Below are positions 2,291-54,988 of a stretch of 64,000 nucleotides of DNA, piece by piece. Each line of letters opens with the position of its first letter. Positions within the stretch are counted from its first letter, which is position 1. This stretch comes from Candidatus Nomurabacteria bacterium GW2011_GWD2_36_14 (GTDB lineage Bacteria; Patescibacteriota; Minisyncoccia; Phycocordibacterales; UBA9973). The notes beneath the pieces were generated by a model. The model made no database searches. It worked only from the letters and a program-made list of their open reading frames with translations, and was not told the DNA's origin. Position numbers and translations under genes: made by a program. The stretch covers positions 527,989-591,988 of the forward strand of contig LBRL01000001.1 in NCBI GenBank assembly GCA_000991405.1, in the 5' to 3' direction.

Positions 2291-3817
2291 ATGAGTATAA
2301 CATTAATAATCATATCCGCAGCTGCCCTACTTGTAGGAGTTGGTGTCGGGTATTATTTGCGTCTCATTGTCTCACTTGGTCAGAAAGGTTCTATGGAACT
2401 TGAAATCAAGAAGGTAATGCTGTCTGCAAAGGAGGATGCCCAGAAGATTGTAGATGAGGCCAAGAAGAAGGGAGAAGCCCATCTAGCTGAAGTCAACAAA
2501 GAAACAAAGGTCAAAGAAGAAGAATGGAAGCACACAGAGAATCGTCTTATCAAGAAAGATGAACTCCTAGATGCTCGCCAAACTGAAATAGATAAAGAAG
2601 TAGAAAAGATAAAAGTAAAGGTAGAAGAAGTAAAGAAGATTAAGGAGCGTGTCGATGGCATGGAAGCAGAGAAAGAAAAAGAGCTTGAGAAAGTTGCTCG
2701 CCTTTCTGTCGACGAAGCCAAGGAAATTCTTTTCAAAGATATTGAAGAAAAGTATGAGGAGGACTTACTCATCCGTATGCAAAAGATGGAAAGTTCCAAC
2801 GCCGAGAAGCTTGATCGTCGTGCCAAGGATATTCTTTCGGCAAGTATCAACCGTCTAGCATCTTCTACTGCCAGTGAAATGATGACTACATCGGTCAACA
2901 TTCCCAACGATGATATTAAAGGAAAGATTATAGGTAAAGAAGGCCGAAACATCCGTGCGTTTGAGAAGGCTTCGGGCGTAGAGCTTATTATTGACGAGAC
3001 TCCGGGTGCTATCGTCATATCATCCTTTGATCCAGTACGCCGTCAGGTTGCTCGCCTAGCGCTTGAGAACCTTATACTAGACGGACGTATTCAGCCTGCC
3101 AAGATTGAGGAAGTCGTAGCTAAAGCCCAAGAAGATATCAATAAAATTATTAAAGACAAGGGTGACCAAGCTGTATACGAGTGTGGCATCTTTAACCTAG
3201 ACCCTCGTATTAGTGCTATTGTCGGACGTTTATACTTCCGTACATCATATGGGCAGAACGTTCTCCAACACTCTATAGAAATGGCTCACATAGCCGGAAT
3301 GCTTGCTGAGGAACTCGGTGCGGACGTCCAGATAGCCAAGGCTGGAGCACTCGTCCACGATATAGGTAAAGCTCTCGACCACGAAGTACAAGGTACCCAT
3401 ATAGACATAGGTATCCGAATCCTTCAGAAGTTCAAGGCCGACCCTAGGATTATCGTAGCTATGAAGAGTCACCACGACGATACTCCTCATGAATCTATTG
3501 AAGCTGTAATAGTTCAGACTGCCGACCATATCTCAGGAGGTCGCCCAGGAGCAAGACGCGACAGTGTCGAGAACTATATCAAGCGCCTACAAGAGCTAGA
3601 AGCACTCGCAACAAGCTTTGAAGGAGTAGAAAAGTCTTATGCTCTGTCAGCTGGCCGTGAAATCCGCATATTCGTTACCCCAGAGAGAGTTGGCGACGTC
3701 GCTGCTAAAGAAATGGCTCGTGAAATCGCCAAGAAGATAGAGCAAGAGCTCACTTACCCAGGCGAAATCCGCGTCACAGTTATCCGCGAAAACAGAATTA
3801 TCGAATACGCAAGATAA
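2291..3817 (+). CDS. rny: Ribonuclease Y
   Basis: 508 aa with an N-terminal TM helix, a coiled-coil region, a KH domain (GKIIGKEGRNIRAFEKASGVELIID) and an HD domain (LVHDIGKA...HH). Confidence 0.95.
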   Translation: MSITLIIISAAALLVGVGVGYYLRLIVSLGQKGSMELEIKKVMLSAKEDAQKIVDEAKKKGEAHLAEVNKETKVKEEEWKHTENRLIKKDELLDARQTEIDKEVEKIKVKVEEVKKIKERVDGMEAEKEKELEKVARLSVDEAKEILFKDIEEKYEEDLLIRMQKMESSNAEKLDRRAKDILSASINRLASSTASEMMTTSVNIPNDDIKGKIIGKEGRNIRAFEKASGVELIIDETPGAIVISSFDPVRRQVARLALENLILDGRIQPAKIEEVVAKAQEDINKIIKDKGDQAVYECGIFNLDPRISAIVGRLYFRTSYGQNVLQHSIEMAHIAGMLAEELGADVQIAKAGALVHDIGKALDHEVQGTHIDIGIRILQKFKADPRIIVAMKSHHDDTPHESIEAVIVQTADHISGGRPGARRDSVENYIKRLQELEALATSFEGVEKSYALSAGREIRIFVTPERVGDVAAKEMAREIAKKIEQELTYPGEIRVTVIRENRIIEYAR

Positions 3818-3858
3818 ATAAATAGTAAAAAGTAGAAGGTAGAAAGTTAAAAATGCAT

Positions 3859-4016
3859 AAAACGGCTTGCCCGCACACCCATTTTGCTGTAGCTTTTTTG
3901 TTCTGCCGACAGAATATTTACTTATTTTTGTATTTATTACCTAATATATAGAGTATTATTATTCGTTGTATTGAAAAAGCAGAATAACAGCAAAATGGGT
4001 GTGGGGGCTTGTTTTA
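3859..4016. repeat. Long-loop hairpin element family A, copy 1
   Basis: Left arm aaaacggcttgcccgcacacccattttgctgt and right arm acagcaaaatgggtgtgggggcttgtttt are reverse complements (stem about 20-25 bp with one mismatch) around an AT-rich loop of about 100 nt. Related copies are at 13455-13600, 59047-59200 and 61059-61203. Confidence 0.8.
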
Positions 4017-7347: not shown

Positions 7348-7370
7348 ATTAATAATTAATAATTAATAAT
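7348..7370. repeat. (TTAATAA)n heptamer array
   Basis: attaataattaataattaataat immediately upstream of tRNA-Arg. The same heptamer arrays recur at 24301-24396, 42970-43009, 43364-43464, 51050-51158 and 54961-54982. Confidence 0.7.
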
Positions 7371-7442
7371 GCACTCATGGTGAAATGGATATCACGACAG
7401 TCTTCGGAACTGTTATTGGGGGTTCGAATCCCTCTGGGTGCA
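7371..7442 (+). tRNA. tRNA-Arg (anticodon UCG), no encoded CCA
   Basis: Acceptor GCACTCA/TGGGTGC (one G-U pair), D-stem gtga/tcac, anticodon stem acagt/actgt with loop cttcgga giving UCG, T-loop ttcgaat. Confidence 0.75.
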
Positions 7443-7455
7443 CAAATAGTTTCAT

Positions 7456-12427: not shown

Positions 12428-13420
12428 TTAATTCGAATGAAACTTCTTGTGTACATCTCGAAGTTGCTTGTCTGTAATATGCGTATATATCTGAGTTGTG
12501 GCAATGTTGGCGTGGCCGAGCATCATTTGCACAGAGCGAATGTCGGCTCCATTGGAGAGTAAGTCCGTGGCAAACGAGTGACGAATCACGTGCGGGGTAA
12601 CTTTCTTAGATATTCCAGCTTTTATAGCATAATACTTCACGATTCTCTCTATAGAACGAGGGGTTAATCTGCCATCCTTTCCGGCGGGTGAATTACTTTT
12701 TCCACTATTCCTAGAATACTGTATAAAAAGAGGCTCATCTAAGTCCTTTCTATTCTTTAGATACTCCCGTATTGCATCCTTGGCAGAGTTTGATAAGAAG
12801 ACTACTCGCACCTTTTCACCCTTTCCTCGTATAGAGAATTCATCTTTCGATAAATCCAAGTCTCTATTGAGCGAACAAAGCTCTGAAAGACGAAGGCCTG
12901 TAGAAAAGAATAATTCTAAAATAGCCTTATCTCGCAATACTTTTAAATTCCCATAGGTCAGACCTATGGACTCTATACTTTTACTTTTTGCCCCTAGGTC
13001 CGACCTAGGGGAAGATTCGGGAGCTTTTAAAAGTCTATTCAATTCATCAGTAGAAATAAGGTCGAGCGAACGCTCTTTTATCTTGGCTAAGTCTATCCTG
13101 TCAGGAGCGAGGGAAGTGATAGACCTCTTCATAAGGTATTTAAGGAAAGACCGAAGTGCTATAAGATGATAATTCTGGGTATTTTTCTTAAGCGTTCCTG
13201 ACTGTTGCCCACGAACCTTCACTCCAGGCTGACGATTAAGGAAAAGGCGGAATTCACGAATCTTGTCATCGGTAATATCACTGGGATCACTTATTTTAGC
13301 AAATTCAAAGAATCGACTTATATAGTGATCGTAGTTATTTACAGTCTTCAGACTATTTCCTTTCTCTATTTCTACATGCTCAAGGAATTCTCTTTTTAAT
13401 TGTTCAAGTTGTGTACTCAT
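12428..13420 (-). CDS. xerC: Tyrosine site-specific recombinase XerC/XerD, with an extra linker insertion of about 20 aa
   Basis: 330 aa; the catalytic-domain motifs (GLRLSEL, HVIRHSFATDLLSNGADIRSVQMMLGHANIATTQIYTHI) are present. The linker between LLKAP and RDKAIL is about 18-20 aa longer than usual and is encoded by a palindromic 61-bp element. Confidence 0.9.
   Translation of the reverse strand: MSTQLEQLKREFLEHVEIEKGNSLKTVNNYDHYISRFFEFAKISDPSDITDDKIREFRLFLNRQPGVKVRGQQSGTLKKNTQNYHLIALRSFLKYLMKRSITSLAPDRIDLAKIKERSLDLISTDELNRLLKAPESSPRSDLGAKSKSIESIGLTYGNLKVLRDKAILELFFSTGLRLSELCSLNRDLDLSKDEFSIRGKGEKVRVVFLSNSAKDAIREYLKNRKDLDEPLFIQYSRNSGKSNSPAGKDGRLTPRSIERIVKYYAIKAGISKKVTPHVIRHSFATDLLSNGADIRSVQMMLGHANIATTQIYTHITDKQLRDVHKKFHSN
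12951..13011. repeat. 61-bp nested-palindrome element (family C), in frame inside xerC
   Basis: ccataggtcagacctatgg-actctatacttttactttttg-cccctaggtccgacctagggg. The same architecture and length occur at 54628-54688 (ccataggtcggacctaggg...ccctaggtccgacctatgg). Confidence 0.8.
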
Positions 13421-24300: not shown

Positions 24301-24396
24301 GTAATTAATAATTAATAATTAATAATGTAATATTAAAATGCCTCGGCGTCGCCGAGACATTTTAATTCGTAATTATTAATTATTAATTATTAATTA
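24301..24396. terminator. Terminator hairpin flanked by inverted (TTAATAA)n arrays
   Basis: (taattaa)x4 - ttaaaatgcctcggcgtcgccgagacattttaa - (ttattaa)x4, between convergent genes. Confidence 0.65.
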
Positions 24397-42567: not shown

Positions 42568-42990
42568 ATGCAATTTAAAGTACCACAATTTATAGATATA
42601 GAAGATAAGATATTTGGTCCTTTCACCTTTCGCCAATTCGCGTACCTTATAGGTGGAGGGGGGATAGTATACGTCTTGTACAGACTACTGCCATTCTGGA
42701 TCAGTATCTTCCTCATACTTCCCATCATAGGCCTGACTATATGCCTAGTCTTTGTAAAGATAAATACTAAACCTTTCGAATACTACCTAGAAGCGGCATT
42801 TACTTACTTCATATCTAGTAAGCTTTATATCTGGAAGCAAAGATTGGTCAAAAAGAGTGACAAGCTAGAAGAGGTAAGTGCCCTTACAACAATGTCCAAC
42901 GTACCCATGCTGACAGAGAATAAACTCAAGGATTTATCGTGGAGCTTAGATATTCAAGACAAGAAAGATAATAAAATAATTAATAGTTAA
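42568..42990 (+). CDS. Small two-TM protein, VirB3-like (ConD/TcpE/PrgI-type) by position and topology
   Basis: 140 aa; two hydrophobic helices (FAYLIGGGGIVYVLYRLL; ISIFLILPIIGLTICLVFV). Its start overlaps the stop of the preceding gene. This is the typical position upstream of VirB4 in Gram-positive T4SS operons. Confidence 0.4.
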   Translation: MQFKVPQFIDIEDKIFGPFTFRQFAYLIGGGGIVYVLYRLLPFWISIFLILPIIGLTICLVFVKINTKPFEYYLEAAFTYFISSKLYIWKQRLVKKSDKLEEVSALTTMSNVPMLTENKLKDLSWSLDIQDKKDNKIINS

Positions 42991-43006
42991 GAATTAATAA
43001 TTAATA

Positions 43007-43357
43007 ATGAAGGGGAATAATATTATAAGGGAAAAAAGTTATAGTTTTAGTCTTAAAATTATTAAGATATATCAAGAATTAACTCAAGAAAAGAAGGAAT
43101 TCATACTATCAAAACAATTAATTCGTTCTGGTACATCTATAGGTGCAAATATCGAAGAATCAACAGGTGCCCAGTCTAAAAATGACTTCATCGCTAAATT
43201 GAGTATCTCGTACAAAGAAACATGGGAAACTCTTTATTGGTTAAGACTTTTGACCGATAGTGGTTTCCTTAATAAGAAACAGTCTGATATTCTTATTTTT
43301 GACTGCGAAGAGTTACTTAAAATACTAGGAGCCATACTAAAAACCTCCAAATCCTAG
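43007..43357 (+). CDS. Four-helix-bundle protein (23S rRNA intervening-sequence protein / Avd-like family)
   Basis: 116 aa; SYSFSLKIIKIY...LIRSGTSIGANIEES...FIAKLSISYKETWETLYWLRL matches the TIGR02436/PF05635-type family. It is flanked by (TTAATAA)n arrays at 42970-43009 and 43364-43464. Confidence 0.7.
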   Translation: MKGNNIIREKSYSFSLKIIKIYQELTQEKKEFILSKQLIRSGTSIGANIEESTGAQSKNDFIAKLSISYKETWETLYWLRLLTDSGFLNKKQSDILIFDCEELLKILGAILKTSKS

Positions 43358-43468
43358 GGTTTCATTATTAATTATTCAATGTGTGATATAATAAAAAGGT
43401 AATTAAAGTGTTTTGATTTATGTTTCTAAATTATTAATTATTAATTCTTAATTATTAATTACTTACCT

Positions 43469-44122
43469 ATGGCAATAGACGCAAAAGCGGCACAAAGTTT
43501 CGTACCAATAAAAGAAGTTCGCAATGGAGTCATCGTACTGAAGGATGGGGGGCTTCGAGCCGTCCTTATCGCTTCATCTATCAACCTTTCACTTAAGGCC
43601 TCCGATGAGCAAGTCGCTATTATCAACCAATTCCAAAACTTCCTAAACGGGCTAGATTTCCCCACACAGATAGTCATACAATCTAGACGTCTCGATATAC
43701 GACCATACCTACTCATGCTTGATGGTCGCCTCAAAGAACAAACAGAACCACTTCTAAAAATTCAAACCAAGGAGTACATAGACTTCATTAAATCTTTCAC
43801 CGATGAAGTAAATATTATGACCAAGACCTTCTTTGTTGTCGTACCTTATAGTTCAAGTGTCATTAATGCTAAGAGTGGATTAATGGATAGTATTCTAAGT
43901 GGTGGCACTCAAAAGAAGCCAGTGGACGACAGCAAGAAGGCTGTGGACTTGGCAACCTTTGAAGAGAAGCGTAGCCAGCTCGAACAGAGAACCAACGTCA
44001 TTATAAGTGGACTAAGTGGCATAGGAATACGAAGTAGTGTACTGAAGACAGACGAAGTTGTAGAACTTTTCTATAAAACATTCAACCCAGGAGATATTAG
44101 TCAGGGAATAAAATTACAATAA
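43469..44122 (+). pseudogene. virB4: VirB4-family ATPase, N-terminal 217-aa fragment (separated from the rest by one in-frame TAA)
   Basis: VPIKEVRNGVIVLKDGGLRAVLIASSINLSLKASDEQVAIINQFQNFLNGLDFPTQIV matches the N-terminus of Gram-positive VirB4 homologues (TcpF/TraE/PrgJ type). The stop at 44120-44122 is followed 6 nt later, in the same frame, by the ATG of the next ORF. Confidence 0.55.
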
Positions 44123-44128
44123 AACAAA

Positions 44129-45958
44129 ATGTCATTATTTTCATCAATATTTAAAAAAGGGGATGATAAAAAGCCACAGGGTCAAGTGATGCCTGTCTTG
44201 CCTACGGAAATATACAAGGCGGCAAATCTGGAACTCCAAGACGTCATTGCTCCTTCGGCTCTACAAATAACTCCAAAAGGTATTAACCTTGGGGACAAGA
44301 TAGCACGAACCTTCTTCGTTATTTCCTATCCTCGATACTTAACCGACAACTGGTTCTCACCGATTGTGAACCTCGACAAAGTCTTCGATGTATCTATATT
44401 CATCCACCCTATTGAAACTGCAGATATATTGAGATCATTCCAAAAGAAGGTAGCTGAGGTTCAAAGTCAGATATCTGTACGAGAGGCGAAGGGTCTAGTA
44501 CGTGACCCAATGCTCGATACTGCCTATCAAGACTTAGAAGGACTTCGCGATAACTTGATGCAGGCTCAGGAGAAAATGTTTGACGTAGGACTATATATTA
44601 CAGTCTATGCCGACAACGAGAACGACATGTTCAAAATAGAAAGTGAGATCAAGTCCCTTCTTGACTCCAAGCTTGTATATATAAAGCCCGCTCTCTTCCA
44701 GCAAGACGAAGGGTTCAAGAGCGTCATACCACTTGGTATGGACGTGCTGGGTATACACCAGAAGCTCAACACTGAGCCACTTTCTAGTCTCTTCCCATTT
44801 GTGTCTTTCGACCTTACTTCTGATAAGGGAATTCTATATGGGGTAAACAGACACAATAGTAGTCTTATCATCTTTGATAGATTCTCTCTACCAAACTACA
44901 ACTCCATTACTTTCGCAACAGCTGGAGCTGGTAAGTCGTATGCAACCAAGCTTGAGATTATTCGTACACTCATGTTCGATGCAGAAGTCATAGTCATAGA
45001 CCCCGAAAGAGAGTATGAATACCTAGCAGAAGCAATAGGGGGTAGATACTTCAATATTTCACTTTCTTCCGATCACCACATCAACCCTTTCGACCTTCCT
45101 ATCCCTAGACCAGATGAAACTGCGGCTGATGTACTTCGTGCCAATACTATTAATCTTGTAGGACTCTTCCGCATAATGCTAGGAGGACTGACTCCTGAAG
45201 AAGATTCTATAATCGACAGAGCTATTACCGAGACTTATGCCTTGAAAGATATAACAGCCGAATCCAACTTTGCCAACATTGAGCCACCACTACTTTCAGA
45301 CTTTGAAGTCGTACTGGCAGGAATGGATGGAAGTAACTCCCTTATACAACGTCTTACCAAGTATACTCACGGTTCTTGGGCTTCGTTTATAAACAAACCT
45401 TCCAATGTAGATATCAATCGCAAATTCGTCGTCTTCTCTGTTCGAGATATGGAGGACGAGCTTAAACCTGTGGCTATGTATATAGTTACTCACTTCATAT
45501 GGAATGCTGTCCGCAAGACTCTTAAGAAGAGACTCTTAGTCGTTGACGAGGCTTGGTGGATGATGAAGTCAGAAGACACAGCTTCGTTCCTATACTCTAT
45601 TGCCAAGAGAGGGCGTAAATACTATCTAGGACTTGCCACTATTACTCAGGACGTAGGAGACTTCATGAAGAGTCCTTATGGAGTGCCTATTGTGACCAAC
45701 TCTTCTATTCAACTTCTACTTAAACAGTCGCCGGCCACTATCGACGTCCTTCAGAAGACTTTCAACCTGACAGATGAGGAGAAGTACTTGCTTCTGGAAG
45801 CCAATGTGGGAGAGGGTATCTTCTTCGCAGGACTAAAGCACGTCGCAGTGAAGACTATTGCCTCGTATACAGAAGACCAGATCATTACCTCTGATCCTTC
45901 GCAAATCTTGGCCATTAGAAAAGCCAAGGATGATCTTGAAATGGCGGGAGGAAAGTAA
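44129..45958 (+). CDS. virB4: VirB4/TrbE/ConE-like T4SS ATPase (C-terminal 609 aa)
   Basis: The VirB4 mid-domain pattern (VIAPSALQITPKGINLGDKIARTFFVISYPRYLTDNWF) fits the IAP...G...R-hh-V-x-YPR...W pattern. Walker A is FATAGAGKS. Walker B is LLVVDEAWWMM, and the DEAW motif is typical of VirB4/TraC. Confidence 0.7.
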   Translation: MSLFSSIFKKGDDKKPQGQVMPVLPTEIYKAANLELQDVIAPSALQITPKGINLGDKIARTFFVISYPRYLTDNWFSPIVNLDKVFDVSIFIHPIETADILRSFQKKVAEVQSQISVREAKGLVRDPMLDTAYQDLEGLRDNLMQAQEKMFDVGLYITVYADNENDMFKIESEIKSLLDSKLVYIKPALFQQDEGFKSVIPLGMDVLGIHQKLNTEPLSSLFPFVSFDLTSDKGILYGVNRHNSSLIIFDRFSLPNYNSITFATAGAGKSYATKLEIIRTLMFDAEVIVIDPEREYEYLAEAIGGRYFNISLSSDHHINPFDLPIPRPDETAADVLRANTINLVGLFRIMLGGLTPEEDSIIDRAITETYALKDITAESNFANIEPPLLSDFEVVLAGMDGSNSLIQRLTKYTHGSWASFINKPSNVDINRKFVVFSVRDMEDELKPVAMYIVTHFIWNAVRKTLKKRLLVVDEAWWMMKSEDTASFLYSIAKRGRKYYLGLATITQDVGDFMKSPYGVPIVTNSSIQLLLKQSPATIDVLQKTFNLTDEEKYLLLEANVGEGIFFAGLKHVAVKTIASYTEDQIITSDPSQILAIRKAKDDLEMAGGK

Positions 45959-50299: not shown

Positions 50300-51034
50300 T
50301 TAATTATTCTCTAATGATCTTCGAATGTACCATTCTTGAATTATAGTGAATATATTACTTATAACAAAATATAATGCAACTGCAGCAGAAATTTGCCATG
50401 AAATGAAAACAATAAATATAGGCAATATGTACTTGATGTTGGTCTGCATGCTTCCCGAAAGTTCATCTTGAAAGCTTTTGACTTCTGGTGTTGCCCCAGC
50501 AGGAATAACTTCAACCTTTGGTTGAACAGGGGAGGCAAGGTAGCCTTGGATAAATTGAGTAATACCGGCTAGAATGGCTAGCACAAGGCTCTTGCCACCA
50601 AGCTCAATAAGTCCCAAGAAGTTGGTATTCATAGCTGTAGGCTTGGCTATGAAGGTATATATGGCACCTGTATCAAGAGATAGCCCCTTAAGAAATACAT
50701 AATACAATGCAAAGATAACTGGAAGCTGTATAAGTACGACAATACATCCTGAAAAGGGATTGGTGCCGTATTTCTTGTATAATTCAAAGGTTTTCTTGGC
50801 TTGTTCCTCTTTGTTTGGGAAGTCTTTCTTTATCTGCTTGATCTCGGGTTCCATCTTCTTCATAAGTATCTGGCTCTTTATAGACTTCTTGGTCAAGGGA
50901 GCAAGGGCAAGCTTTATAAGGATAGTAACTAGTATAATAGCAAAACCAACATCACCAAAAGTGACATTGTTTATAATAAAAATAAGGATATTATAAATTG
51001 GCTGATAAAAAATAGAATTCCATATTGCTGACAT
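50300..51034 (-). CDS. yidC: Membrane protein insertase YidC (short form)
   Basis: 244 aa; conserved YidC/Oxa1 core with multiple TMs; gene order yidD-yidC-jag. Confidence 0.85.
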   Translation of the reverse strand: MSAIWNSIFYQPIYNILIFIINNVTFGDVGFAIILVTILIKLALAPLTKKSIKSQILMKKMEPEIKQIKKDFPNKEEQAKKTFELYKKYGTNPFSGCIVVLIQLPVIFALYYVFLKGLSLDTGAIYTFIAKPTAMNTNFLGLIELGGKSLVLAILAGITQFIQGYLASPVQPKVEVIPAGATPEVKSFQDELSGSMQTNIKYILPIFIVFISWQISAAVALYFVISNIFTIIQEWYIRRSLENN

Positions 51035-51049
51035 TCACCTATTGTAGCA

Positions 51050-51158
51050 TAATAATTAATAATTAAAAATTAATAATTAATAATGTAAAAAACCTAAGCA
51101 AAGCTTAGGTTTTTAGTGTATTGTGTTTAAATTATTAATTATTAATTATTAATTAATT
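51050..51158. terminator. Hairpin flanked by inverted (TTAATAA)n arrays
   Basis: (taataat)n - gtaaaaaacctaagcaaagcttaggttttt - (attatta)n; the same architecture as 24301-24396. Confidence 0.6.
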
Positions 51159-51359
51159 TAGTGGATCATAGTGCTTCTTCTGCCAAGGGTGACACCTGAG
51201 AATTCTTCTGAAACCCTTATAAATGCCTATAATTGAGCCGTATTTAATAATTGCTTCCTTTGTATATTCTGAACATGTAGGAAGAAAAACACATGAACTA
51301 TGTGACCTGAGGGGAATCTTCTGATAGAGATTTATAAGCTTAATAAATACTTTTTTCAT
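51153..51359 (-). CDS. yidD: Membrane protein insertion efficiency factor YidD
   Basis: 68 aa; CVFLPTCSEYTKEAIIKYG and RILRCHPW are YidD signatures. Confidence 0.85.
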   Translation of the reverse strand: MKKVFIKLINLYQKIPLRSHSSCVFLPTCSEYTKEAIIKYGSIIGIYKGFRRILRCHPWQKKHYDPLN

Positions 51360-51365
51360 GTATAT

Positions 51366-51686
51366 TTATATAATCTTGGCTTTCTTGAGTATTAAGTCTA
51401 TATCCTTCTTGATATCAATAGAGCTTGCTATTAGAGCTTCTTTCTTGTAGAAAAGTATGCCGGCACATGACTTCAAGTCATATGAACGAAGGATATTATA
51501 GCCTTTTCTACGTAGGGAGTTCCTTTTTACGGCTGTTTTCGCGATCTTTTTAGGAGCAACCACAGCGTACTGGGGGGTATCTTGCTTAAGATAGCGCAAA
51601 ATAAAAAACGAGCCAGAAACGACACTTCCTTTATCCATGATATTCTGGAAGACACTTCTAGTAACTCGCTTTTTCTTTGGGAGCAT
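51366..51686 (-). CDS. rnpA: Ribonuclease P protein component (probable start at the internal Met; the called ORF extends to 51773 and overlaps rpmH)
   Basis: MLPKKKRVTRSVFQNIMDKG... is a typical RnpA N-terminus; it sits between rpmH and yidD. Confidence 0.75.
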   Translation of the reverse strand: MLPKKKRVTRSVFQNIMDKGSVVSGSFFILRYLKQDTPQYAVVAPKKIAKTAVKRNSLRRKGYNILRSYDLKSCAGILFYKKEALIASSIDIKKDIDLILKKAKII

Positions 51687-51693
51687 AGTAGTG

Positions 51694-51834
51694 TTACTTT
51701 GCAATAGAAACCTTGGCACGACCCTTCTGGCGACGTGCTTTAGTGACCTTTTTACCGCCGGGAGTTTTCGCACGAACTAAGAATCCATGAGTTTTAGCTC
51801 TTTTTCTTTTATTTGGTTGATATGTTTGAGACAT
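51694..51834 (-). CDS. rpmH: 50S ribosomal protein L34
   Basis: Hand translation of the minus strand gives [46 protein letters not shown] (46 aa); not in the ORF track because it is under 60 aa. Confidence 0.9.
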
Positions 51835-51950
51835 ATGCAAAATATATACTATATTTGACAAAAATGCAATATAGACTCAAAACATATCCACATGTTATTA
51901 ACAGCTTAATTAAGACTTTCAATTATTGTGTTTTTTAAAACACAGGTATA

Positions 51951-53309
51951 ATGGGAAACATGAACACAAAAGAACTCTGGGAAAAGTGCCTTTCTGAGGT
52001 AGAACTAAGCATATCAAAAGCCAACTTTACAACTTGGTTTAAAAATACATCTATCGTTAGAGAAGAGGCGGGAACACTTTATGTGGGAGTTCCAAACGAA
52101 TTTGTAAAAGACTGGCTATACAACAAGTTCCATAAGTTAATATTGAAAACAATAATAGGCCACGAAGAGGGAGTAAGAAGTATAGAATATATAATCCACA
52201 AGAATGATAGCTCTCCTAAAAATATTGAAAATACTATCCTAAAACAAGTTAATATTAATAAAGAACTTCCTTTAAGTGATCTATATTTAAACAAAGACGA
52301 TAACCTAAATCCAAAATACAACTTCAACTCATTTGTCGTTGGTCCTTTCAATGAACTTGCGTATGCTGTGGCCCAAGCGATCATAACAAACCCCGGACAG
52401 AATTACAATCCATTCTTCGTTTATGGTGGTACAGGACTCGGCAAGACACATATGATCCAAGCAATAGGTAATACTATTAAAATAAAACACCCACACAAGA
52501 AGATCTACTACGTCTCTCTAGAACGTTTTGCTATCGACTATATAAATTCAATTGCCAATAAAAACCCAAACTCTTTCAAAGAAAAGTATAGGAAGTATGA
52601 TGTCATCATTATGGACGATATACAATTTATATCTGGTAAAGACAAAACACAAGAAGAACTCTTCCATCTTTTCAATACCTTATACGAAAACAACAAGCAA
52701 ATAATCTTCTCCTCTGATAAACACCCTAACTTCATTCAGGGATTAGAAGATAGACTTCAATCTAGGTTCGCTTCTGGTATGACTGTCCAGATAGTAGAGC
52801 CAGACTATGAATCCAGAGTTGCAATTATAAAGGCCAAATTTGAATCTACTAATTGTATTATAGAAAACGACATAGTTTCCTATTTGGCAGAGATACTGGA
52901 AGGGAATATTCGTGAATTGGAAGGGAGTTTAAACACTATTATCTGCCAGTCTCAACTTAAAAATAAGTCTTTATCTTTAAGTGAAATAAAGCTTCTTATT
53001 AAGAACAATATCAAACCTAAAAAGACTGTAGCTATCAAGGATGTGGTGTCTGTAATAGCCAACCATTATGGAATATCTGACGAAATAATATATGAGAAGA
53101 CTCGCAGGAAAGAAATAGTGAAAGCAAGACAAGTAGCAATGTATATACTTCGTGAGGATTTCAACATCTCATATCCACTCATAGGTAGTAAACTGGGGGG
53201 AAGAGACCATACAACAGCCATACACTCGCACTTAAAAATTAAAGAAGAATTAAAAACAGACCCCGCCCTCTTACAAGAAATAGAAAAGATAAGAATAATG
53301 TTCAAGTAA
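51951..53309 (+). CDS. dnaA: Chromosomal replication initiator DnaA
   Basis: 452 aa; AAA+ Walker A GGTGLGKTHMIQAIGN, sensor motifs, and the C-terminal DnaA-box-binding HTH (RQVAMYILRE...GGRDHTTAIHS). Confidence 0.95.
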   Translation: MGNMNTKELWEKCLSEVELSISKANFTTWFKNTSIVREEAGTLYVGVPNEFVKDWLYNKFHKLILKTIIGHEEGVRSIEYIIHKNDSSPKNIENTILKQVNINKELPLSDLYLNKDDNLNPKYNFNSFVVGPFNELAYAVAQAIITNPGQNYNPFFVYGGTGLGKTHMIQAIGNTIKIKHPHKKIYYVSLERFAIDYINSIANKNPNSFKEKYRKYDVIIMDDIQFISGKDKTQEELFHLFNTLYENNKQIIFSSDKHPNFIQGLEDRLQSRFASGMTVQIVEPDYESRVAIIKAKFESTNCIIENDIVSYLAEILEGNIRELEGSLNTIICQSQLKNKSLSLSEIKLLIKNNIKPKKTVAIKDVVSVIANHYGISDEIIYEKTRRKEIVKARQVAMYILREDFNISYPLIGSKLGGRDHTTAIHSHLKIKEELKTDPALLQEIEKIRIMFK

Positions 53310-53525
53310 ATAATAAGGGTGTGGAAAAGATGTGTTTAAAGAAATTAAAAATGTGGACAACTTGATGGATAAATATAAAAGTAATTTTTATTAGAAAATA
53401 ACAAAAATAAAGAAATAAGAAAATTAAAAACAAGATATATAAAATAAAGACATAAAAGTAATCCACATATTCACATATATAATAGTAATAATAGATTATA
53501 TTAATAGATTAATAACAAATACACT
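53310..53525. promoter_or_regulatory. Candidate oriC (dnaA-dnaN spacer with DnaA-box-like 9-mers)
   Basis: Very AT-rich 216 bp containing tgtggaaaa (53320), tgtggacaa (53352), gatggataa (53364) and taatccaca (53459), each 1-2 mismatches from TTATCCACA or its reverse complement. An additional aTATCCACA lies at 51884 upstream of dnaA. Confidence 0.6.
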
Positions 53526-54623
53526 ATGAAGTTAGAATGCTCAATAGAAAAAATTAAAAATGCACTCATGATAGTAGATAGAATAACTGGTAAGAATCTT
53601 ACCCTTCCTGTACTGGGATCAGTTCTATGGGTAGCAACAGGTAAGACTCTTAAACTCCGTGCCACAAATCTAAATATAGGTATAGAAATGGAAGTGCCAG
53701 CTAAAATAGAAAAAGAAGGGGTTGTAGCTATAAGAAGTGATATACTCTCGTCTCTATTCTCAGTTCTTTCTGGAGATTCCTTTGTAACTTTTGAACTAGT
53801 AAATGACAACTTGTCTGTAAAAACAAAATCAAATACTATAATCTTGAAAAGTATTCCAAACGATGATTTCCCTACAATTCCACTCATAGAAGGTGAAGTT
53901 CTAAACATACCAGCTAAAAAATTCATAGAAGGAGTTAAGTCTGTATATTATAGTGCTTCTATATCAGATATAAAGCCTGAGATAGGAAGCGTCTATATAT
54001 ATCCAGAAGACGACATGCTTGTGTTTGTGGCGACTGACTCTTTCCGACTTGCAGAAAAGAAGGTGAAAATAAAACAAAAACTTTCTTTTAATGGGATACT
54101 TATACCATTTAAAAACACAGTTGAGATTATTAAGGTCTTGGATGGAGTAGATGGAGATATAAAGATAACATTACAAAAGAATCAAATTTCTTTCTCTTCA
54201 GACAATATATATCTAACATCTAGAATTATAGATGGAGCATTCCCTGACTATAAACAAATAGTGCCCAAAGGAGGAACTACAGAAGTGACACTCTTGAAGC
54301 AAGACTTTCTTTCATCTTTAAAAGTATCAAACATATTCTCTGATAAATTCAATCAAATTACTTTCAATATTAAACCTTCCGAAAAAGTTTTTGAAATAGA
54401 AGCAAAGAATACAGATATAGGAGAAAATATAACATTCCTAGCGTCAGCACTCTCGGGGGAGAATGTAACTCTTAACTTCAACTACAAATATATAGTAGAC
54501 TGCTTCCCATCTATATCTACTGATTCACTTGTACTTGAGTTTAATGGTAGTAATAGGCCTATGATACTGAGACCTATTGGAGATTCCTCGTTTATGTATT
54601 TGGTAATGCCAATGAATAGATAA
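53526..54623 (+). CDS. dnaN: DNA polymerase III beta sliding clamp
   Basis: 365 aa; three-domain clamp; it follows dnaA directly. Confidence 0.9.
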   Translation: MKLECSIEKIKNALMIVDRITGKNLTLPVLGSVLWVATGKTLKLRATNLNIGIEMEVPAKIEKEGVVAIRSDILSSLFSVLSGDSFVTFELVNDNLSVKTKSNTIILKSIPNDDFPTIPLIEGEVLNIPAKKFIEGVKSVYYSASISDIKPEIGSVYIYPEDDMLVFVATDSFRLAEKKVKIKQKLSFNGILIPFKNTVEIIKVLDGVDGDIKITLQKNQISFSSDNIYLTSRIIDGAFPDYKQIVPKGGTTEVTLLKQDFLSSLKVSNIFSDKFNQITFNIKPSEKVFEIEAKNTDIGENITFLASALSGENVTLNFNYKYIVDCFPSISTDSLVLEFNGSNRPMILRPIGDSSFMYLVMPMNR

Positions 54624-54688: not shown

Positions 54689-54963
54689 CCCTTAATATTA
54701 TGGATTACAATCATATAAAAAATTATTTAGAAAAGTTTAAAAACCTCCTTTTTACCAAAGAAGAAATATATCAAATAGTTTCTAGGGCAATAGAAGACAA
54801 TATACATCTTAAAATTGAAACCAAAAATATACAAATAAAACCACCTTTTTTATACATAAAAGCCTCTCCATTAGTTCGTAATGAGATAATGATAAATAAA
54901 GAAAAAATCCTGAAAGATATATTACTCTTATCTCCTCAAAGTAATTTAAAAGATATAAGATAA
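54685..54963 (+). CDS. Small hypothetical protein, possibly DUF721/YaaB-like
   Basis: 92 aa immediately downstream of dnaN, where DUF721-family genes commonly sit; the similarity is weak and judged by eye only. Confidence 0.3.
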   Translation: MALNIMDYNHIKNYLEKFKNLLFTKEEIYQIVSRAIEDNIHLKIETKNIQIKPPFLYIKASPLVRNEIMINKEKILKDILLLSPQSNLKDIR

Positions 54964-54988
54964 TTAATAATTAATAATTATAAATACC

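What the first reader, a model, noticed from the sequence alone, without database searches (positions are those of the whole stretch)
42970..43464. Avd / 23S-IVS-type four-helix-bundle gene inserted in the T4SS operon between inverted TTAATAA arrays
The 116-aa four-helix-bundle protein (the family that includes DGR accessory Avd proteins and 23S rRNA intervening-sequence ORFs) sits between the VirB3-like gene and VirB4. Elsewhere in this window the same TTAATAA array pair flanks only a terminator hairpin (24301-24396, 51050-51158), so here the array pair encloses a gene instead. This looks like a cargo gene occupying a repeat-defined site. No reverse transcriptase or template/variable repeats are visible, so it is not a complete DGR in this window.
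Basis: partly seen in the sequence, partly recalled or inferred. Interest (0 to 1): 0.55.

Follow-up and report, generated by a model that had tools for sequence, protein, structure and literature searches.

The report
Four-helix-bundle gene cassette with heptad repeats

Summary
ORF 43007-43357 (116 aa) matches PF05635 (E 2e-27) and TIGR02436 (E 1e-30), and it folds as a four-helix bundle closest to BT_0352 (PDB 2RLD). It lies between prgI (VirB3-like) and a split virB4. It is bracketed by inverted arrays of a 7-nt unit (AATTNNN, here TTAATAA) that can pair into a 32-bp stem.

Comparative data show an insertion:
- None of 80 species-level orthologous operons has the gene in this slot.
- Eight carry it upstream of prgI, one carries it inside virB4, and 71 lack it.
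- Only one sister species shares this layout.

At the alternative slot, 67 of 68 empty sites lack arrays, so the arrays travel with the gene.

The pattern is family-wide. Of 77 relatives, 66 have phased heptad arrays on at least one flank. None of 80 metagenome copies lies in rRNA. Left and right units covary. Cyanobacterial, Bacteroidota, Spirochaete and Chloroflexota homologs have the same architecture with other heptamers.

Best reading: an IVS-type cassette (ORF in the loop of a heptad-repeat stem, as in the Coxiella 23S IVS) living in mRNA spacers, probably processed by RNase III. It is not a DGR. The protein is under strong purifying selection, and its function is unknown.

The parts
42568..42990 (+). 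prgI (VirB3-like) gene. Its stop codon (42988-42990) lies inside the left heptad array.
   Evidence: PF12666 at E 1.8e-10. Sequence.
42974..43008 (.). Left heptad array and left arm of the inverted repeat (AATTAAT/AATTAAG-type units). It ends in the first two bases (A, T; 43007-43008) of the 4HB ORF start codon.
   Evidence: Inverted repeat I1, 35 nt, 94% complementary. Phased AATT array at 42978-43002. Paired in the RNA minimum-free-energy fold.
43007..43357 (+). Four-helix-bundle protein gene (116 aa), PF05635 / TIGR02436.
   Evidence: Family matches. AF2 model pLDDT 92.5 with four helices. Foldseek match to 2RLD at TM 0.91. dN/dS 0.04-0.06 against relatives.
43361..43378 (.). Proximal right arm: a short inverse heptad array, perfect 16-nt complement of 42996-43011. 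It is the cassette's own right end.
   Evidence: Inverted repeat I7. Same geometry (0-20 nt after the stop codon) as in most relatives. One-unit (7-nt) length difference from sister locus L171.
43382..43392 (+). Extended -10 promoter TGTGATATAAT of the virB4 transcription unit.
   Evidence: TGnTAnAAT is found within 120 nt upstream of the TraC-like start in 50 of 79 orthologous loci, against 3.7% of random pieces. Visible in empty sites and in L171.
43427..43464 (.). Distal right heptad array (AATTATT/AATTCTT units) in the virB4 5' UTR. It is the right arm of the 32-35 bp stem.
   Evidence: A comparable array sits between the promoter and the ATG in empty relatives L008 and L010.
43469..45958 (+). 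virB4 as two ORFs: the TraC-like N-terminal part (43469-44122) and the ATPase (44129-45958).
   Evidence: PF26593 / PF19044 matches. The split is conserved in relatives.
24301..24396 (.). Gene-less heptad array pair around a GC-rich hairpin, between convergent genes.
   Evidence: Sequence. Folds at -42 to -44 kcal/mol, z -9 to -11, on both strands.
51050..51158 (.). Gene-less heptad array pair around a hairpin, between yidD and yidC in the rpmH-rnpA-yidD-yidC operon.
7349..7369 (.). Solo heptad array that ends one base (T 7370) before the 5' end of tRNA-Arg (7371).
54962..54979 (.). Solo heptad array between convergent genes (a 92-aa ORF and a PBP1-type gene).

Best explanation
The element at 42974-43378 is an IVS-type gene cassette. 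It consists of a protein-coding four-helix-bundle gene (PF05635/TIGR02436) bracketed by inverted tandem arrays of a 7-nt unit: AATTA-NN upstream and NN-TAATT downstream.

Shown by the analysis:
- The cassette has no mobility gene of its own.
- It was inserted, arrays included, at the 3' end of prgI, just upstream of the conserved virB4 promoter. This happened in the common ancestor of this species and one sister species.

Inferred:
- The cassette is transcribed by read-through from the upstream gene.
- In that RNA the arrays pair into a long A/U-rich stem with the ORF in the loop. Here the stem is 32 bp, using the distal array in the virB4 leader. An alternative 16-bp stem uses the proximal arm.
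- By analogy with the 23S rRNA intervening sequences of Coxiella and Leptospira, the stem is cut by RNase III. The insert would then be released from the host transcript and the flanking genes would stay functional. virB4 is additionally protected by its own promoter.

The protein itself is under strong purifying selection, so it is made and used. Its biochemical role is unknown. It is most likely nucleic-acid binding, like its structural relative Avd.

Spread between sites and genomes is inferred to occur by recombination or DNA uptake involving the arrays, not by an element-encoded enzyme.
For: Family and fold:
- PF05635 E 2e-27 and TIGR02436 E 1e-30.
- AF2 model of four helices, pLDDT 92.5.
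- Foldseek match to 2RLD, TM 0.91.

Insertion:
- Among 80 species-level orthologous T4SS loci, none has the gene between prgI and the TraC-like gene. Eight have it upstream of prgI and one has it between the two virB4 parts.
- The closest relatives by TraC-like identity (85-88%) are empty.
- Sister locus L171 (4HB protein 89% identical) has the same layout.

The arrays belong to the cassette:
- Empty upstream-of-prgI spacers have a median of 20 nt, and arrays occur in 1 of 68.
- Filled spacers are 370-526 nt and, apart from L016 and L058 (1 and 3 arrays detected), carry 2 arrays.

Family-wide signature:
- 48 of 77 homologs have arrays of at least 3 units on both sides, and 18 more have them on one side.
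- Array density is 6.25 per kb near the gene against 0.147 per kb elsewhere in the same loci.
- A motif-free test found strong periodicity in 100 of 154 flanks, with lag 7 in 100 of 101 periodic flanks. Controls gave 10 of 146 with mixed lags.
- The best inverted-repeat score has a median of 16 against 8 for shuffled flanks.
- Left and right unit types covary: 0.56 against 0.19 when permuted, 0 of 5000 permutations as high.
- Polarity is conserved: 49:9 upstream and 65:7 downstream.
- Cultured Cyanobacteria, Bacteroidota, Spirochaetota and Chloroflexota homologs have the same architecture with other heptamers.
- Bacteroidales, Nitrospiraceae and Bacteroidota homologs at 61-65% identity keep AATTACG-type units.

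Read-through transcription:
- The upstream neighbour is on the same strand in 61 of 67 cases, at a median gap of 42 nt.

Stem:
- The RNA minimum-free-energy fold has a 32-bp stem enclosing the ORF, z -4.5.

Precedent:
- The Coxiella IVS has a 28-bp stem from terminal inverted repeats, is cut by RNase III, carries the S23p ORF in the loop, and has tandem heptameric repeats before the ATG (PMC4990558).

Selection:
- dN/dS is 0.04-0.06 with dS above 1.
- The non-coding flanks are still about 85-90% identical to L171.

No mobility or DGR enzymes:
- The 131 neighbouring ORFs hit 147 Pfam families, with at most 4 per family. No reverse transcriptase or transposase is among the recurrent ones.
Against: - RNase III cleavage, and even transcription, are untested here, and the presence of rnc in this genome was not checked.
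- Mismatches in the arms show no excess of sense-strand G:U over A:C (22 against 39). There is therefore no positive signature that the pairing is selected at the sense-RNA level. A DNA-level or protein-binding constraint fits as well.
- The heptad motif itself (AATTA) is conserved across phyla and its polarity relative to the ORF is fixed. A mere stem would not require either.
- Period 7 is kept even when the unit sequence changes, which also asks for more than a stem.
- Gene-less pairs in the window enclose unrelated hairpins, so they are not simple deletion derivatives of the cassette.
- No target-site duplication or other transposition footprint was seen.
Confidence: 0.55

Rival explanations
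1. Two-part protein-repeat system. The four-helix-bundle protein, probably a pentamer, specifically binds or helps generate the heptad arrays on DNA or RNA. The gene sits within its own sites. The gene-less arrays elsewhere (terminator flanks, the tRNA 5' flank, the virB4 leader) are its dispersed targets.
For: - The heptad motif tracks the protein subfamily across phyla. AATTA-NN units occur in CPR, Bacteroidota and a Nitrospiraceae contig with 47% GC, while more distant homologs have different heptamers.
- Period 7 and array polarity are conserved.
- Arrays with the same unit occur gene-less at four other sites in this window.
- In T4SS spacers, gene-less arrays occur only in the clade where 4HB cassettes occur.
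- The structural relative Avd is a nucleic-acid-binding pentamer within the DGR RNP (8UB7 hit).
Against: - There is no binding data.
- Co-transfer of the gene and arrays as one unit explains the same correlation.
- Array lengths vary from 3 to more than 12 units, so there is no fixed stoichiometry.
- Whether array-bearing genomes always encode a 4HB gene could not be tested.
Confidence: 0.2
2. Domesticated accessory or regulator of the Nomurabacteria T4SS. The gene is kept in the operon because it serves secretion or DNA uptake.
For: - All of the closest homologs whose contexts were looked up (78-89% identity) sit in this same operon, on one side of prgI or the other.
- Purifying selection is strong.
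- The layout is conserved with the sister species.
Against: - The gene is absent from 71 of 80 orthologous operons, including the nearest relatives.
- Its position is not fixed; three slots are used.
- Family members sit next to 147 different Pfam families in other genomes, inside RND efflux, topoisomerase, type I RM and cas operons (PMC3936711).
Confidence: 0.1
3. The arrays are ordinary simple-sequence repeats or terminator extensions, acting as expression rheostats through unit gain and loss or as all-frame stop signals. They accumulate in spacers of these genomes independently of the gene, and the association arises because both prefer the same spacers.
For: - A one-unit (7-nt) indel separates the window from L171.
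- Heptamer SSRs are known to be over-represented in the intergenic DNA of some bacteria, often as inverted pairs (PMC4692102; PMC4679880).
- TTAATAA arrays put stop codons in all frames on both strands, which is visible directly in the sequence.
Against: - Arrays are enriched 42-fold next to the gene relative to the rest of the same loci.
- Empty orthologous spacers lack arrays.
- Left and right unit types covary, and polarity relative to the ORF is fixed.
Confidence: 0.1
4. Remnant or distant accessory gene (Avd) of a diversity-generating retroelement.
For: - Fold similarity to Bordetella phage Avd (4DWL, TM 0.78) and to Avd within the DGR RNP (8UB7).
- PF05635 is the commonest DGR-neighbour family (PMC10053308).
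Against: - No TR/VR-like direct repeat is present in 30000-56000.
- The neighbours are T4SS genes, and none of the 10 mid-size window ORFs scanned is a reverse transcriptase.
- The family profile does not reach Avd at E up to 10.
- There is no PHROG hit, and only 2 relatives occur in 2.9 million viral contigs.
- No reverse transcriptase family recurs among the 131 neighbours of homologs.
Confidence: 0.03

Closest known systems
23S rRNA intervening sequence (IVS) with S23p ORF, as in Coxiella burnetii and Leptospira (PMC4990558)
   Same: - The ORF belongs to the same protein family.
- The element is about 430-500 nt long.
- Terminal inverted repeats form a stem of about 28-35 bp with the ORF in the loop.
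- Tandem heptameric repeats lie directly before the start codon.
- Distribution is sporadic, suggesting horizontal spread.
- There is no element-encoded mobility enzyme.
   Different: - The element here sits between protein-coding genes of a T4SS operon, not in helix 25 or 45 of 23S rRNA. None of 80 metagenome homolog loci lies in rRNA.
- The protein is under strong purifying selection, whereas the Coxiella ORF is reported as decaying and untranslated.
- RNase III processing has not been shown here.
BT_0352 (PDB 2RLD) and XCC0516 (PDB 2GSC), 'S23 ribosomal protein family' four-helix bundles of unknown function
   Same: - 45% identity and TM 0.91 to 2RLD; TM about 0.75 to 2GSC.
- Both entries hold five chains each, consistent with the pentamer reported for XCC0516 (PMC4990558, citing Lin 2006).
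   Different: No function is known for either protein. Their genomic flanks were not examined here.
Avd, accessory variability determinant of diversity-generating retroelements
   Same: Same four-helix-bundle fold (TM 0.78 to 4DWL) and the same Pfam clan-level family usage.
   Different: - Identity is only 14%, and the family profile does not reach Avd.
- No reverse transcriptase or TR/VR repeats are present.
- Avd genes are not described as being flanked by inverted heptad arrays.
Intergenic heptamer repeat arrays: cyanobacterial STRR-type heptanucleotides, Xanthomonas GGGAATC (about 70 inverted pairs per genome) and Nostoc GGGGA(C/T)T (PMC4692102), and TAACTGA repeats of Beggiatoaceae, Cyanobacteria and Bacteroidetes (PMC4679880)
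   Same: - Tandem 7-nt units in intergenic DNA, often abutting start codons.
- In Xanthomonas they often form convergent (inverted) pairs.
- Patchy phylogenetic distribution, function unknown.
   Different: Those papers do not mention PF05635, S23p or four-helix-bundle genes (0 occurrences). Here the arrays are tied to that gene family, and the unit is AATTNNN.
RNase III-processed miniature inverted-repeat elements in operon transcripts (Neisseria Correia elements, enterobacterial ERIC), cited from own knowledge
   Same: Small inserts with inverted ends, co-transcribed with host genes and forming stems in mRNA.
   Different: - Those elements have conserved interiors, target duplications and no ORF.
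- Here the ends are tandem heptads, the interior is a conserved protein gene, and no target duplication was seen.

Membership tests
PF05635 / TIGR02436 four-helix-bundle (23S rRNA IVS protein) family | Profile HMM score above the curated cutoff | tested here: met
   PF05635 scores 95.9 bits against a cutoff of 33.8. TIGR02436 scores 106.2 bits against a cutoff of 24.
PF05635 / TIGR02436 four-helix-bundle (23S rRNA IVS protein) family | Up-down four-helix-bundle fold like 2RLD and 2GSC | tested here: met
   The AF2 model has helices 6-27, 33-53, 58-84 and 90-115, pLDDT 92.5. TM is 0.91 to 2RLD and 0.75 to 2GSC.
PF05635 / TIGR02436 four-helix-bundle (23S rRNA IVS protein) family | Homopentameric toroid | not tested
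   Only a monomer was modelled. 2RLD and 2GSC each hold five chains.
23S rRNA intervening sequence (IVS) element | Located inside a 23S rRNA gene (helix 25 or 45) | tested here: not met
   There is no rRNA in the window. The element lies between prgI and virB4. None of 80 homolog loci lies in rRNA.
23S rRNA intervening sequence (IVS) element | Terminal inverted repeats forming a stem of at least about 20 bp that encloses the ORF | tested here: met
   The arms are 35 nt and 94% complementary. A 32-bp stem appears in the RNA minimum-free-energy fold, z -4.5.
23S rRNA intervening sequence (IVS) element | Tandem heptameric repeats adjoining the ORF start (Coxiella type) | tested here: met
   compared with PMC4990558.
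23S rRNA intervening sequence (IVS) element | Excision from the precursor RNA by RNase III | not testable with these tools
   This needs RNA end mapping or an in vitro cleavage assay.
Diversity-generating retroelement (Avd component) | Adjacent reverse transcriptase | tested here: not met
   The neighbours are T4SS genes. None of the 10 mid-size window ORFs scanned is a reverse transcriptase. The rest of the genome was not searched.
Diversity-generating retroelement (Avd component) | Template/variable repeat pair | tested here: not met
   No such direct repeat of at least 45 nt occurs in 30000-56000.
Diversity-generating retroelement (Avd component) | Sequence-level relationship to characterised Avd | tested here: not met
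   The family profile finds 2RLD and 2GSC but not 4DWL at E up to 10. Similarity is at fold level only, TM 0.78 at E 0.04.
MITE / transposon-type mobile element | Transposase gene, or multiple copies with a conserved interior, plus a target-site duplication | tested here: not met
   - No transposase family recurs among 131 neighbours.
- The interiors of the gene-less pairs are unrelated hairpins.
- No duplication is visible at the arm boundaries.
Core or accessory T4SS gene | Conserved presence and position in orthologous operons | tested here: not met
   The gene is present in 9 of 80 species-level loci, at other positions than here, and is absent from the closest relatives.

The most novel reading that the evidence does not exclude
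PF05635 four-helix-bundle proteins and inverted heptamer arrays form one widespread two-part system. The protein recognises, maintains or generates arrays of its cognate 7-nt unit on RNA or DNA. The gene-less array pairs and solo arrays scattered in the same genomes are its products or targets. This would include the STRR-type heptamers of cyanobacteria and the paired heptamers of Xanthomonas. It would give a function to the IVS proteins and an origin to bacterial heptamer repeats.
Probability: 0.2. Interest if true: 0.85.

Novelty: new variant of a known kind. Interest (0 to 1): 0.62.

Why it matters
The proteins encoded in 23S rRNA intervening sequences have had no function since the 1990s. 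Intergenic heptamer repeats (cyanobacterial STRRs, Xanthomonas GGGAATC pairs, TAACTGA arrays) have had no explanation either.

This window, together with about 100 related loci, shows that the two belong together. The gene is nearly always wrapped in mirror-image heptad arrays. It moves with them into operon spacers in many phyla. rRNA is only one of its homes.

This has three practical consequences:
- The question becomes testable, through RNase III mapping, protein-repeat binding assays and per-genome censuses.
- Reported 'associations' of this family with CRISPR, restriction-modification and DGR loci may simply reflect promiscuous insertion.
- Annotators gain a simple signature for recognising these cassettes.

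Tried and rejected
1. Sense-RNA wobble test. Mismatches in 52 inverted-repeat pairs gave 22 G:U-compatible against 39 A:C. This gives no support for sense-strand RNA selection, so the RNA-level claim rests on analogy.
2. Defence and phage libraries. PADLOC and PHROGs gave no hit. A viral contig scan found only 2 relatives.
3. rRNA context. Rfam on all 80 metagenome loci found no rRNA. It found only tRNAs (two of them directly downstream of the gene) and one RNase P RNA.
4. DGR. A direct-repeat search and a Pfam scan of mid-size ORFs were both negative.
5. MITE idea. The three array pairs in the window have unrelated interiors. Only the roughly 20 nt before the right arrays at 43408 and 51109 resemble each other. 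No target duplications were seen.
6. Literature. Searches for the heptad strings, for PF05635/TIGR02436, and for heptamer plus IVS found only the Coxiella heptamer note.
7. The non-coding interior of about 100 nt in the equivalent array pair of L173 does not look like a decayed 4HB gene. There was no tblastn hit.
8. Whole-genome questions could not be addressed, because only ±10 kb around genes can be fetched. These are other 4HB copies, rnc, a reverse transcriptase, and the array count on the 800-kb scaffold.
Full report
**What is there.**
- The window is identical over 33007-53357 to Candidatus Nomurabacteria (CPR/Paceibacteria) assemblies GCA_000991845.1 and ERZ28564079 scaffold_3, which is 800,830 bp.
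- It lies near dnaA.
- ORF 43007-43357 (116 aa) matches PF05635 at E 2e-27 and TIGR02436 at E 1e-30.
- Its only clear sequence match in the PDB is BT_0352, entry 2RLD.
- An AlphaFold model (pLDDT 92.5) is a four-helix bundle with TM 0.91 to 2RLD, about 0.75 to XCC0516 (2GSC) and 0.78 to phage Avd at 14% identity.
- Upstream is a PrgI-family (VirB3-like) gene. Downstream is virB4, split into a TraC-like 217-aa part and a 609-aa ATPase.

**The repeats.**
- A 35-nt inverted repeat, 42974-43008 paired with 43430-43464, is 94% complementary and brackets the ORF.
- A second, perfect 16-nt arm at 43361-43376 sits 3 nt after the stop codon.
- The arms are tandem arrays of a heptad, AATT plus three bases (here mostly TTAATAA).
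- The 14-mer occurs 19 times in the window against 0.36 expected.
- The other sites are two inverted pairs around GC-rich hairpins, at 24301-24396 between convergent genes and at 51050-51158 between yidD and yidC. There are also two solo arrays, and one of them ends one base before the 5' end of tRNA-Arg.
- As RNA, 42960-43475 folds with a 32-bp stem enclosing the whole ORF (z -4.5).
- The gene-less pairs fold into hairpins of about 40 bp on either strand (z -6 to -11).

**It is an insertion.** A scan of one genome per species with a TraC-like alignment returned 80 orthologous operons.
- None has a four-helix-bundle (4HB) gene between prgI and the TraC-like gene.
- Eight have one upstream of prgI.
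- One has it between the two virB4 parts.
- Seventy-one have none.
- The nearest relatives by TraC-like identity (85-88%) are empty.
- One metagenomic sister (L171; 4HB protein 89% and TraC-like 87% identical) shares the window's exact layout: left array, ORF, short right arm, promoter and distal array.
- The other close homologs whose contexts were looked up (78-84%) sit upstream of prgI in the same operon.

**The virB4 promoter.**
- Empty prgI-to-virB4 spacers contain a conserved extended -10 promoter, TGnTAnAAT. It occurs in 50 of 79 loci against 3.7% of random pieces, at a median of 9 nt from the ATG.
- In the window this promoter (43382-43392) lies after the cassette's proximal arm.
- The cassette therefore sits at the 3' end of the prgI transcription unit, and virB4 keeps its own promoter.
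- The distal array lies in a lengthened virB4 leader. A similar array is present in some empty relatives.

**The arrays travel with the gene.**
- At the upstream-of-prgI slot, 68 empty loci have a median spacer of 20 nt, and 67 of them have no array.
- Filled loci have spacers of 370-526 nt with arrays on both sides of the gene; L016 and L058 had 1 and 3 arrays detected.
- Gene-less arrays in the prgI-to-virB4 spacer occur in 5 of the 68 empty loci, all in the clade where 4HB cassettes occur.

**The signature is family-wide.** A metagenome scan gave 80 more loci with 50-78% identical proteins.
- Of 77 genes with full flanks, 48 have phased AATT heptad arrays of at least 3 units on both sides and 18 on one side.
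- Array density is 6.25 per kb next to the gene against 0.147 per kb elsewhere in the same loci.
- A motif-free autocorrelation test found periodicity in 100 of 154 flanks, and the lag was 7 in 100 of 101 periodic flanks. Controls gave 10 of 146 with mixed lags.
- The best up/down inverted-repeat score has a median of 16 against 8 for shuffled flanks.
- Left and right unit types match within loci far more than between loci: 0.56 against 0.19, 0 of 5000 permutations as high.
- Polarity is fixed, with AATTA-NN upstream and NN-TAATT downstream.
- Homologs named Bacteroidales, Nitrospiraceae (47% GC) and Bacteroidota keep AATTACG-type units.
- More distant homologs on plasmids of cultured Cyanobacteria, Bacteroidota, Spirochaetota and Chloroflexota have the same architecture with other heptamers, such as CCAGTGA, GTCGGAG, AATCCCC and AGTGATT.

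**Where the cassettes sit.**
- None of the 80 metagenome copies is in rRNA.
- The upstream neighbour is co-oriented in 61 of 67 cases, at a median gap of 42 nt.
- The 131 neighbouring ORFs hit 147 Pfam families, with at most 4 per family and no recurrent reverse transcriptase or transposase.
- Examples are RND adaptor|4HB|RND pump, OEP|4HB|MFP, a gyrB/parE-type topoisomerase subunit|4HB|a parC-type (DNA_topoisoIV) subunit, RhuM-Fic|4HB|HsdM, drmD|4HB|MmeI, and between cas2 and cas1.

**Selection.**
- dN/dS against relatives is 0.04-0.06, with synonymous sites near or at saturation. The protein is therefore functional.
- The non-coding flanks of the window and L171 are still about 85-90% identical. 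They differ by one 7-nt unit in the proximal arm.
- This indicates constraint on the flanks plus slippage-type change in unit number.

**How it most likely works.**
- The anatomy is that of the Coxiella 23S rRNA IVS. That element is 428 nt long, has a 28-bp stem from terminal inverted repeats, is cut by RNase III, carries the S23p ORF in the loop, and has tandem heptamers before the ATG (PMC4990558).
- CPR rRNA insertions are also known to carry this ORF family (PMC11270868).
- I therefore read the window element as an IVS-type cassette living in an mRNA spacer.
- Shown: the insertion, the architecture, its generality, the co-orientation with the upstream gene, and the purifying selection.
- Inferred: read-through transcription, stem formation in RNA, RNase III processing, and spread by recombination or DNA uptake.
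- The sense-strand wobble test gave no support for RNA-level selection.
- The conserved motif, fixed polarity and strict period of 7 suggest that something reads the sequence itself. The obvious candidate is the encoded protein, which is the main rival and the most novel reading.

**What it is not.**
- It is not a DGR.
- It matches no model of a known or candidate anti-phage defence system in PADLOC.
- It is not typically phage-borne.
- It is not a conserved T4SS component.
- It is not a chance product of AT-rich sequence.

**Literature.** In the searchable library, three observations exist separately:
- heptamers in the Coxiella IVS;
- inverted heptamer pairs in Xanthomonas and heptamers in Nostoc, and TAACTGA arrays;
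- 23S_rRNA_IVP genes inside cas operons.

None of these papers connects the protein family with flanking heptad arrays outside rRNA. The library is incomplete, so prior description elsewhere cannot be excluded.

**Verdict.** I rate it a new variant of a known kind (an IVS-type cassette outside rRNA), with a family-wide heptad signature that appears undescribed.

Noticed in passing
L069:3595-3879 and the same spacer in L078 (about 3580-3865): A different small selfish-looking insert occupies the prgI-to-virB4 spacer in two species. It is a 94-aa GIY-YIG nuclease ORF (PF01541, E 2.4e-15) flanked by GC-rich inverted repeats. The spacer is therefore a recurrent landing place for small genes.
   Followed up: partly
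window 43469-45958 and all related loci: virB4 is split into a TraC-like 217-aa ORF and a 609-aa ATPase ORF, separated by a few bases. The split is conserved across Nomurabacteria/Paceibacteria, so it is a stable two-gene arrangement and not a pseudogene.
   Followed up: partly
L003-L082, the 120 nt upstream of the TraC-like start; window 43382-43392: In most relatives the extended -10 box TGnTAnAAT ends only about 9 nt before the ATG, which implies leaderless or near-leaderless virB4 mRNA. In the window, and likewise in L171 (the similar L010 layout was only read off the sequence), a heptad array has been interposed, giving a gap of about 76 nt (-10 to ATG).
   Followed up: partly
window 7349-7443; L093:1069-1518; L097:3001-3508: Heptad arrays and 4HB cassettes lie right next to tRNA genes. 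A solo array ends one base before the 5' end of tRNA-Arg in the window, and tRNAs lie 43-95 nt downstream of the 4HB gene in two metagenome loci.
   Followed up: no
L058:2581-2615: A heptad array (AATTACT GATTACC AATTACC AATCACC) appears to lie inside the coding region of the gene upstream of the cassette, readable in one frame without stop codons.
   Followed up: no
L181:2380-3000 (IMG/VR contig): One of the two viral-contig homologs is flanked by inverted arrays with an 8-nt unit (AATTTGTA / TACAAATT) mixed with 7-nt units. It is a rare exception to the heptad rule.
   Followed up: no
L165:1365-1990 (Treponema saccharophilum plasmid pTS1): The flanks hold two different heptamer arrays (GGAAAGT-type and CCGCTCT-type). 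The CCGCTCT-type array is in direct orientation on both sides of the gene, which is more complex than a single inverted pair.
   Followed up: no
window 43408-43454 and 51109-51155: The roughly 20 nt preceding the right-hand arrays at the two sites are similar (81% over 47 nt including the array). This hints that the right array plus its leader is itself a repeated module.
   Followed up: no
window 50300-54623: The window spans the replication-origin neighbourhood: rpmH-rnpA-yidD-yidC-jag on the minus strand, then dnaA and dnaN. One gene-less heptad pair with a terminator-like hairpin sits inside that essential operon, between yidD and yidC.
   Followed up: partly
window 12428-13420 (-): A tyrosine recombinase (Phage_integrase, E 7.8e-40) is present. 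It is probably a housekeeping Xer-type enzyme. It is not adjacent to any heptad array.
   Followed up: no
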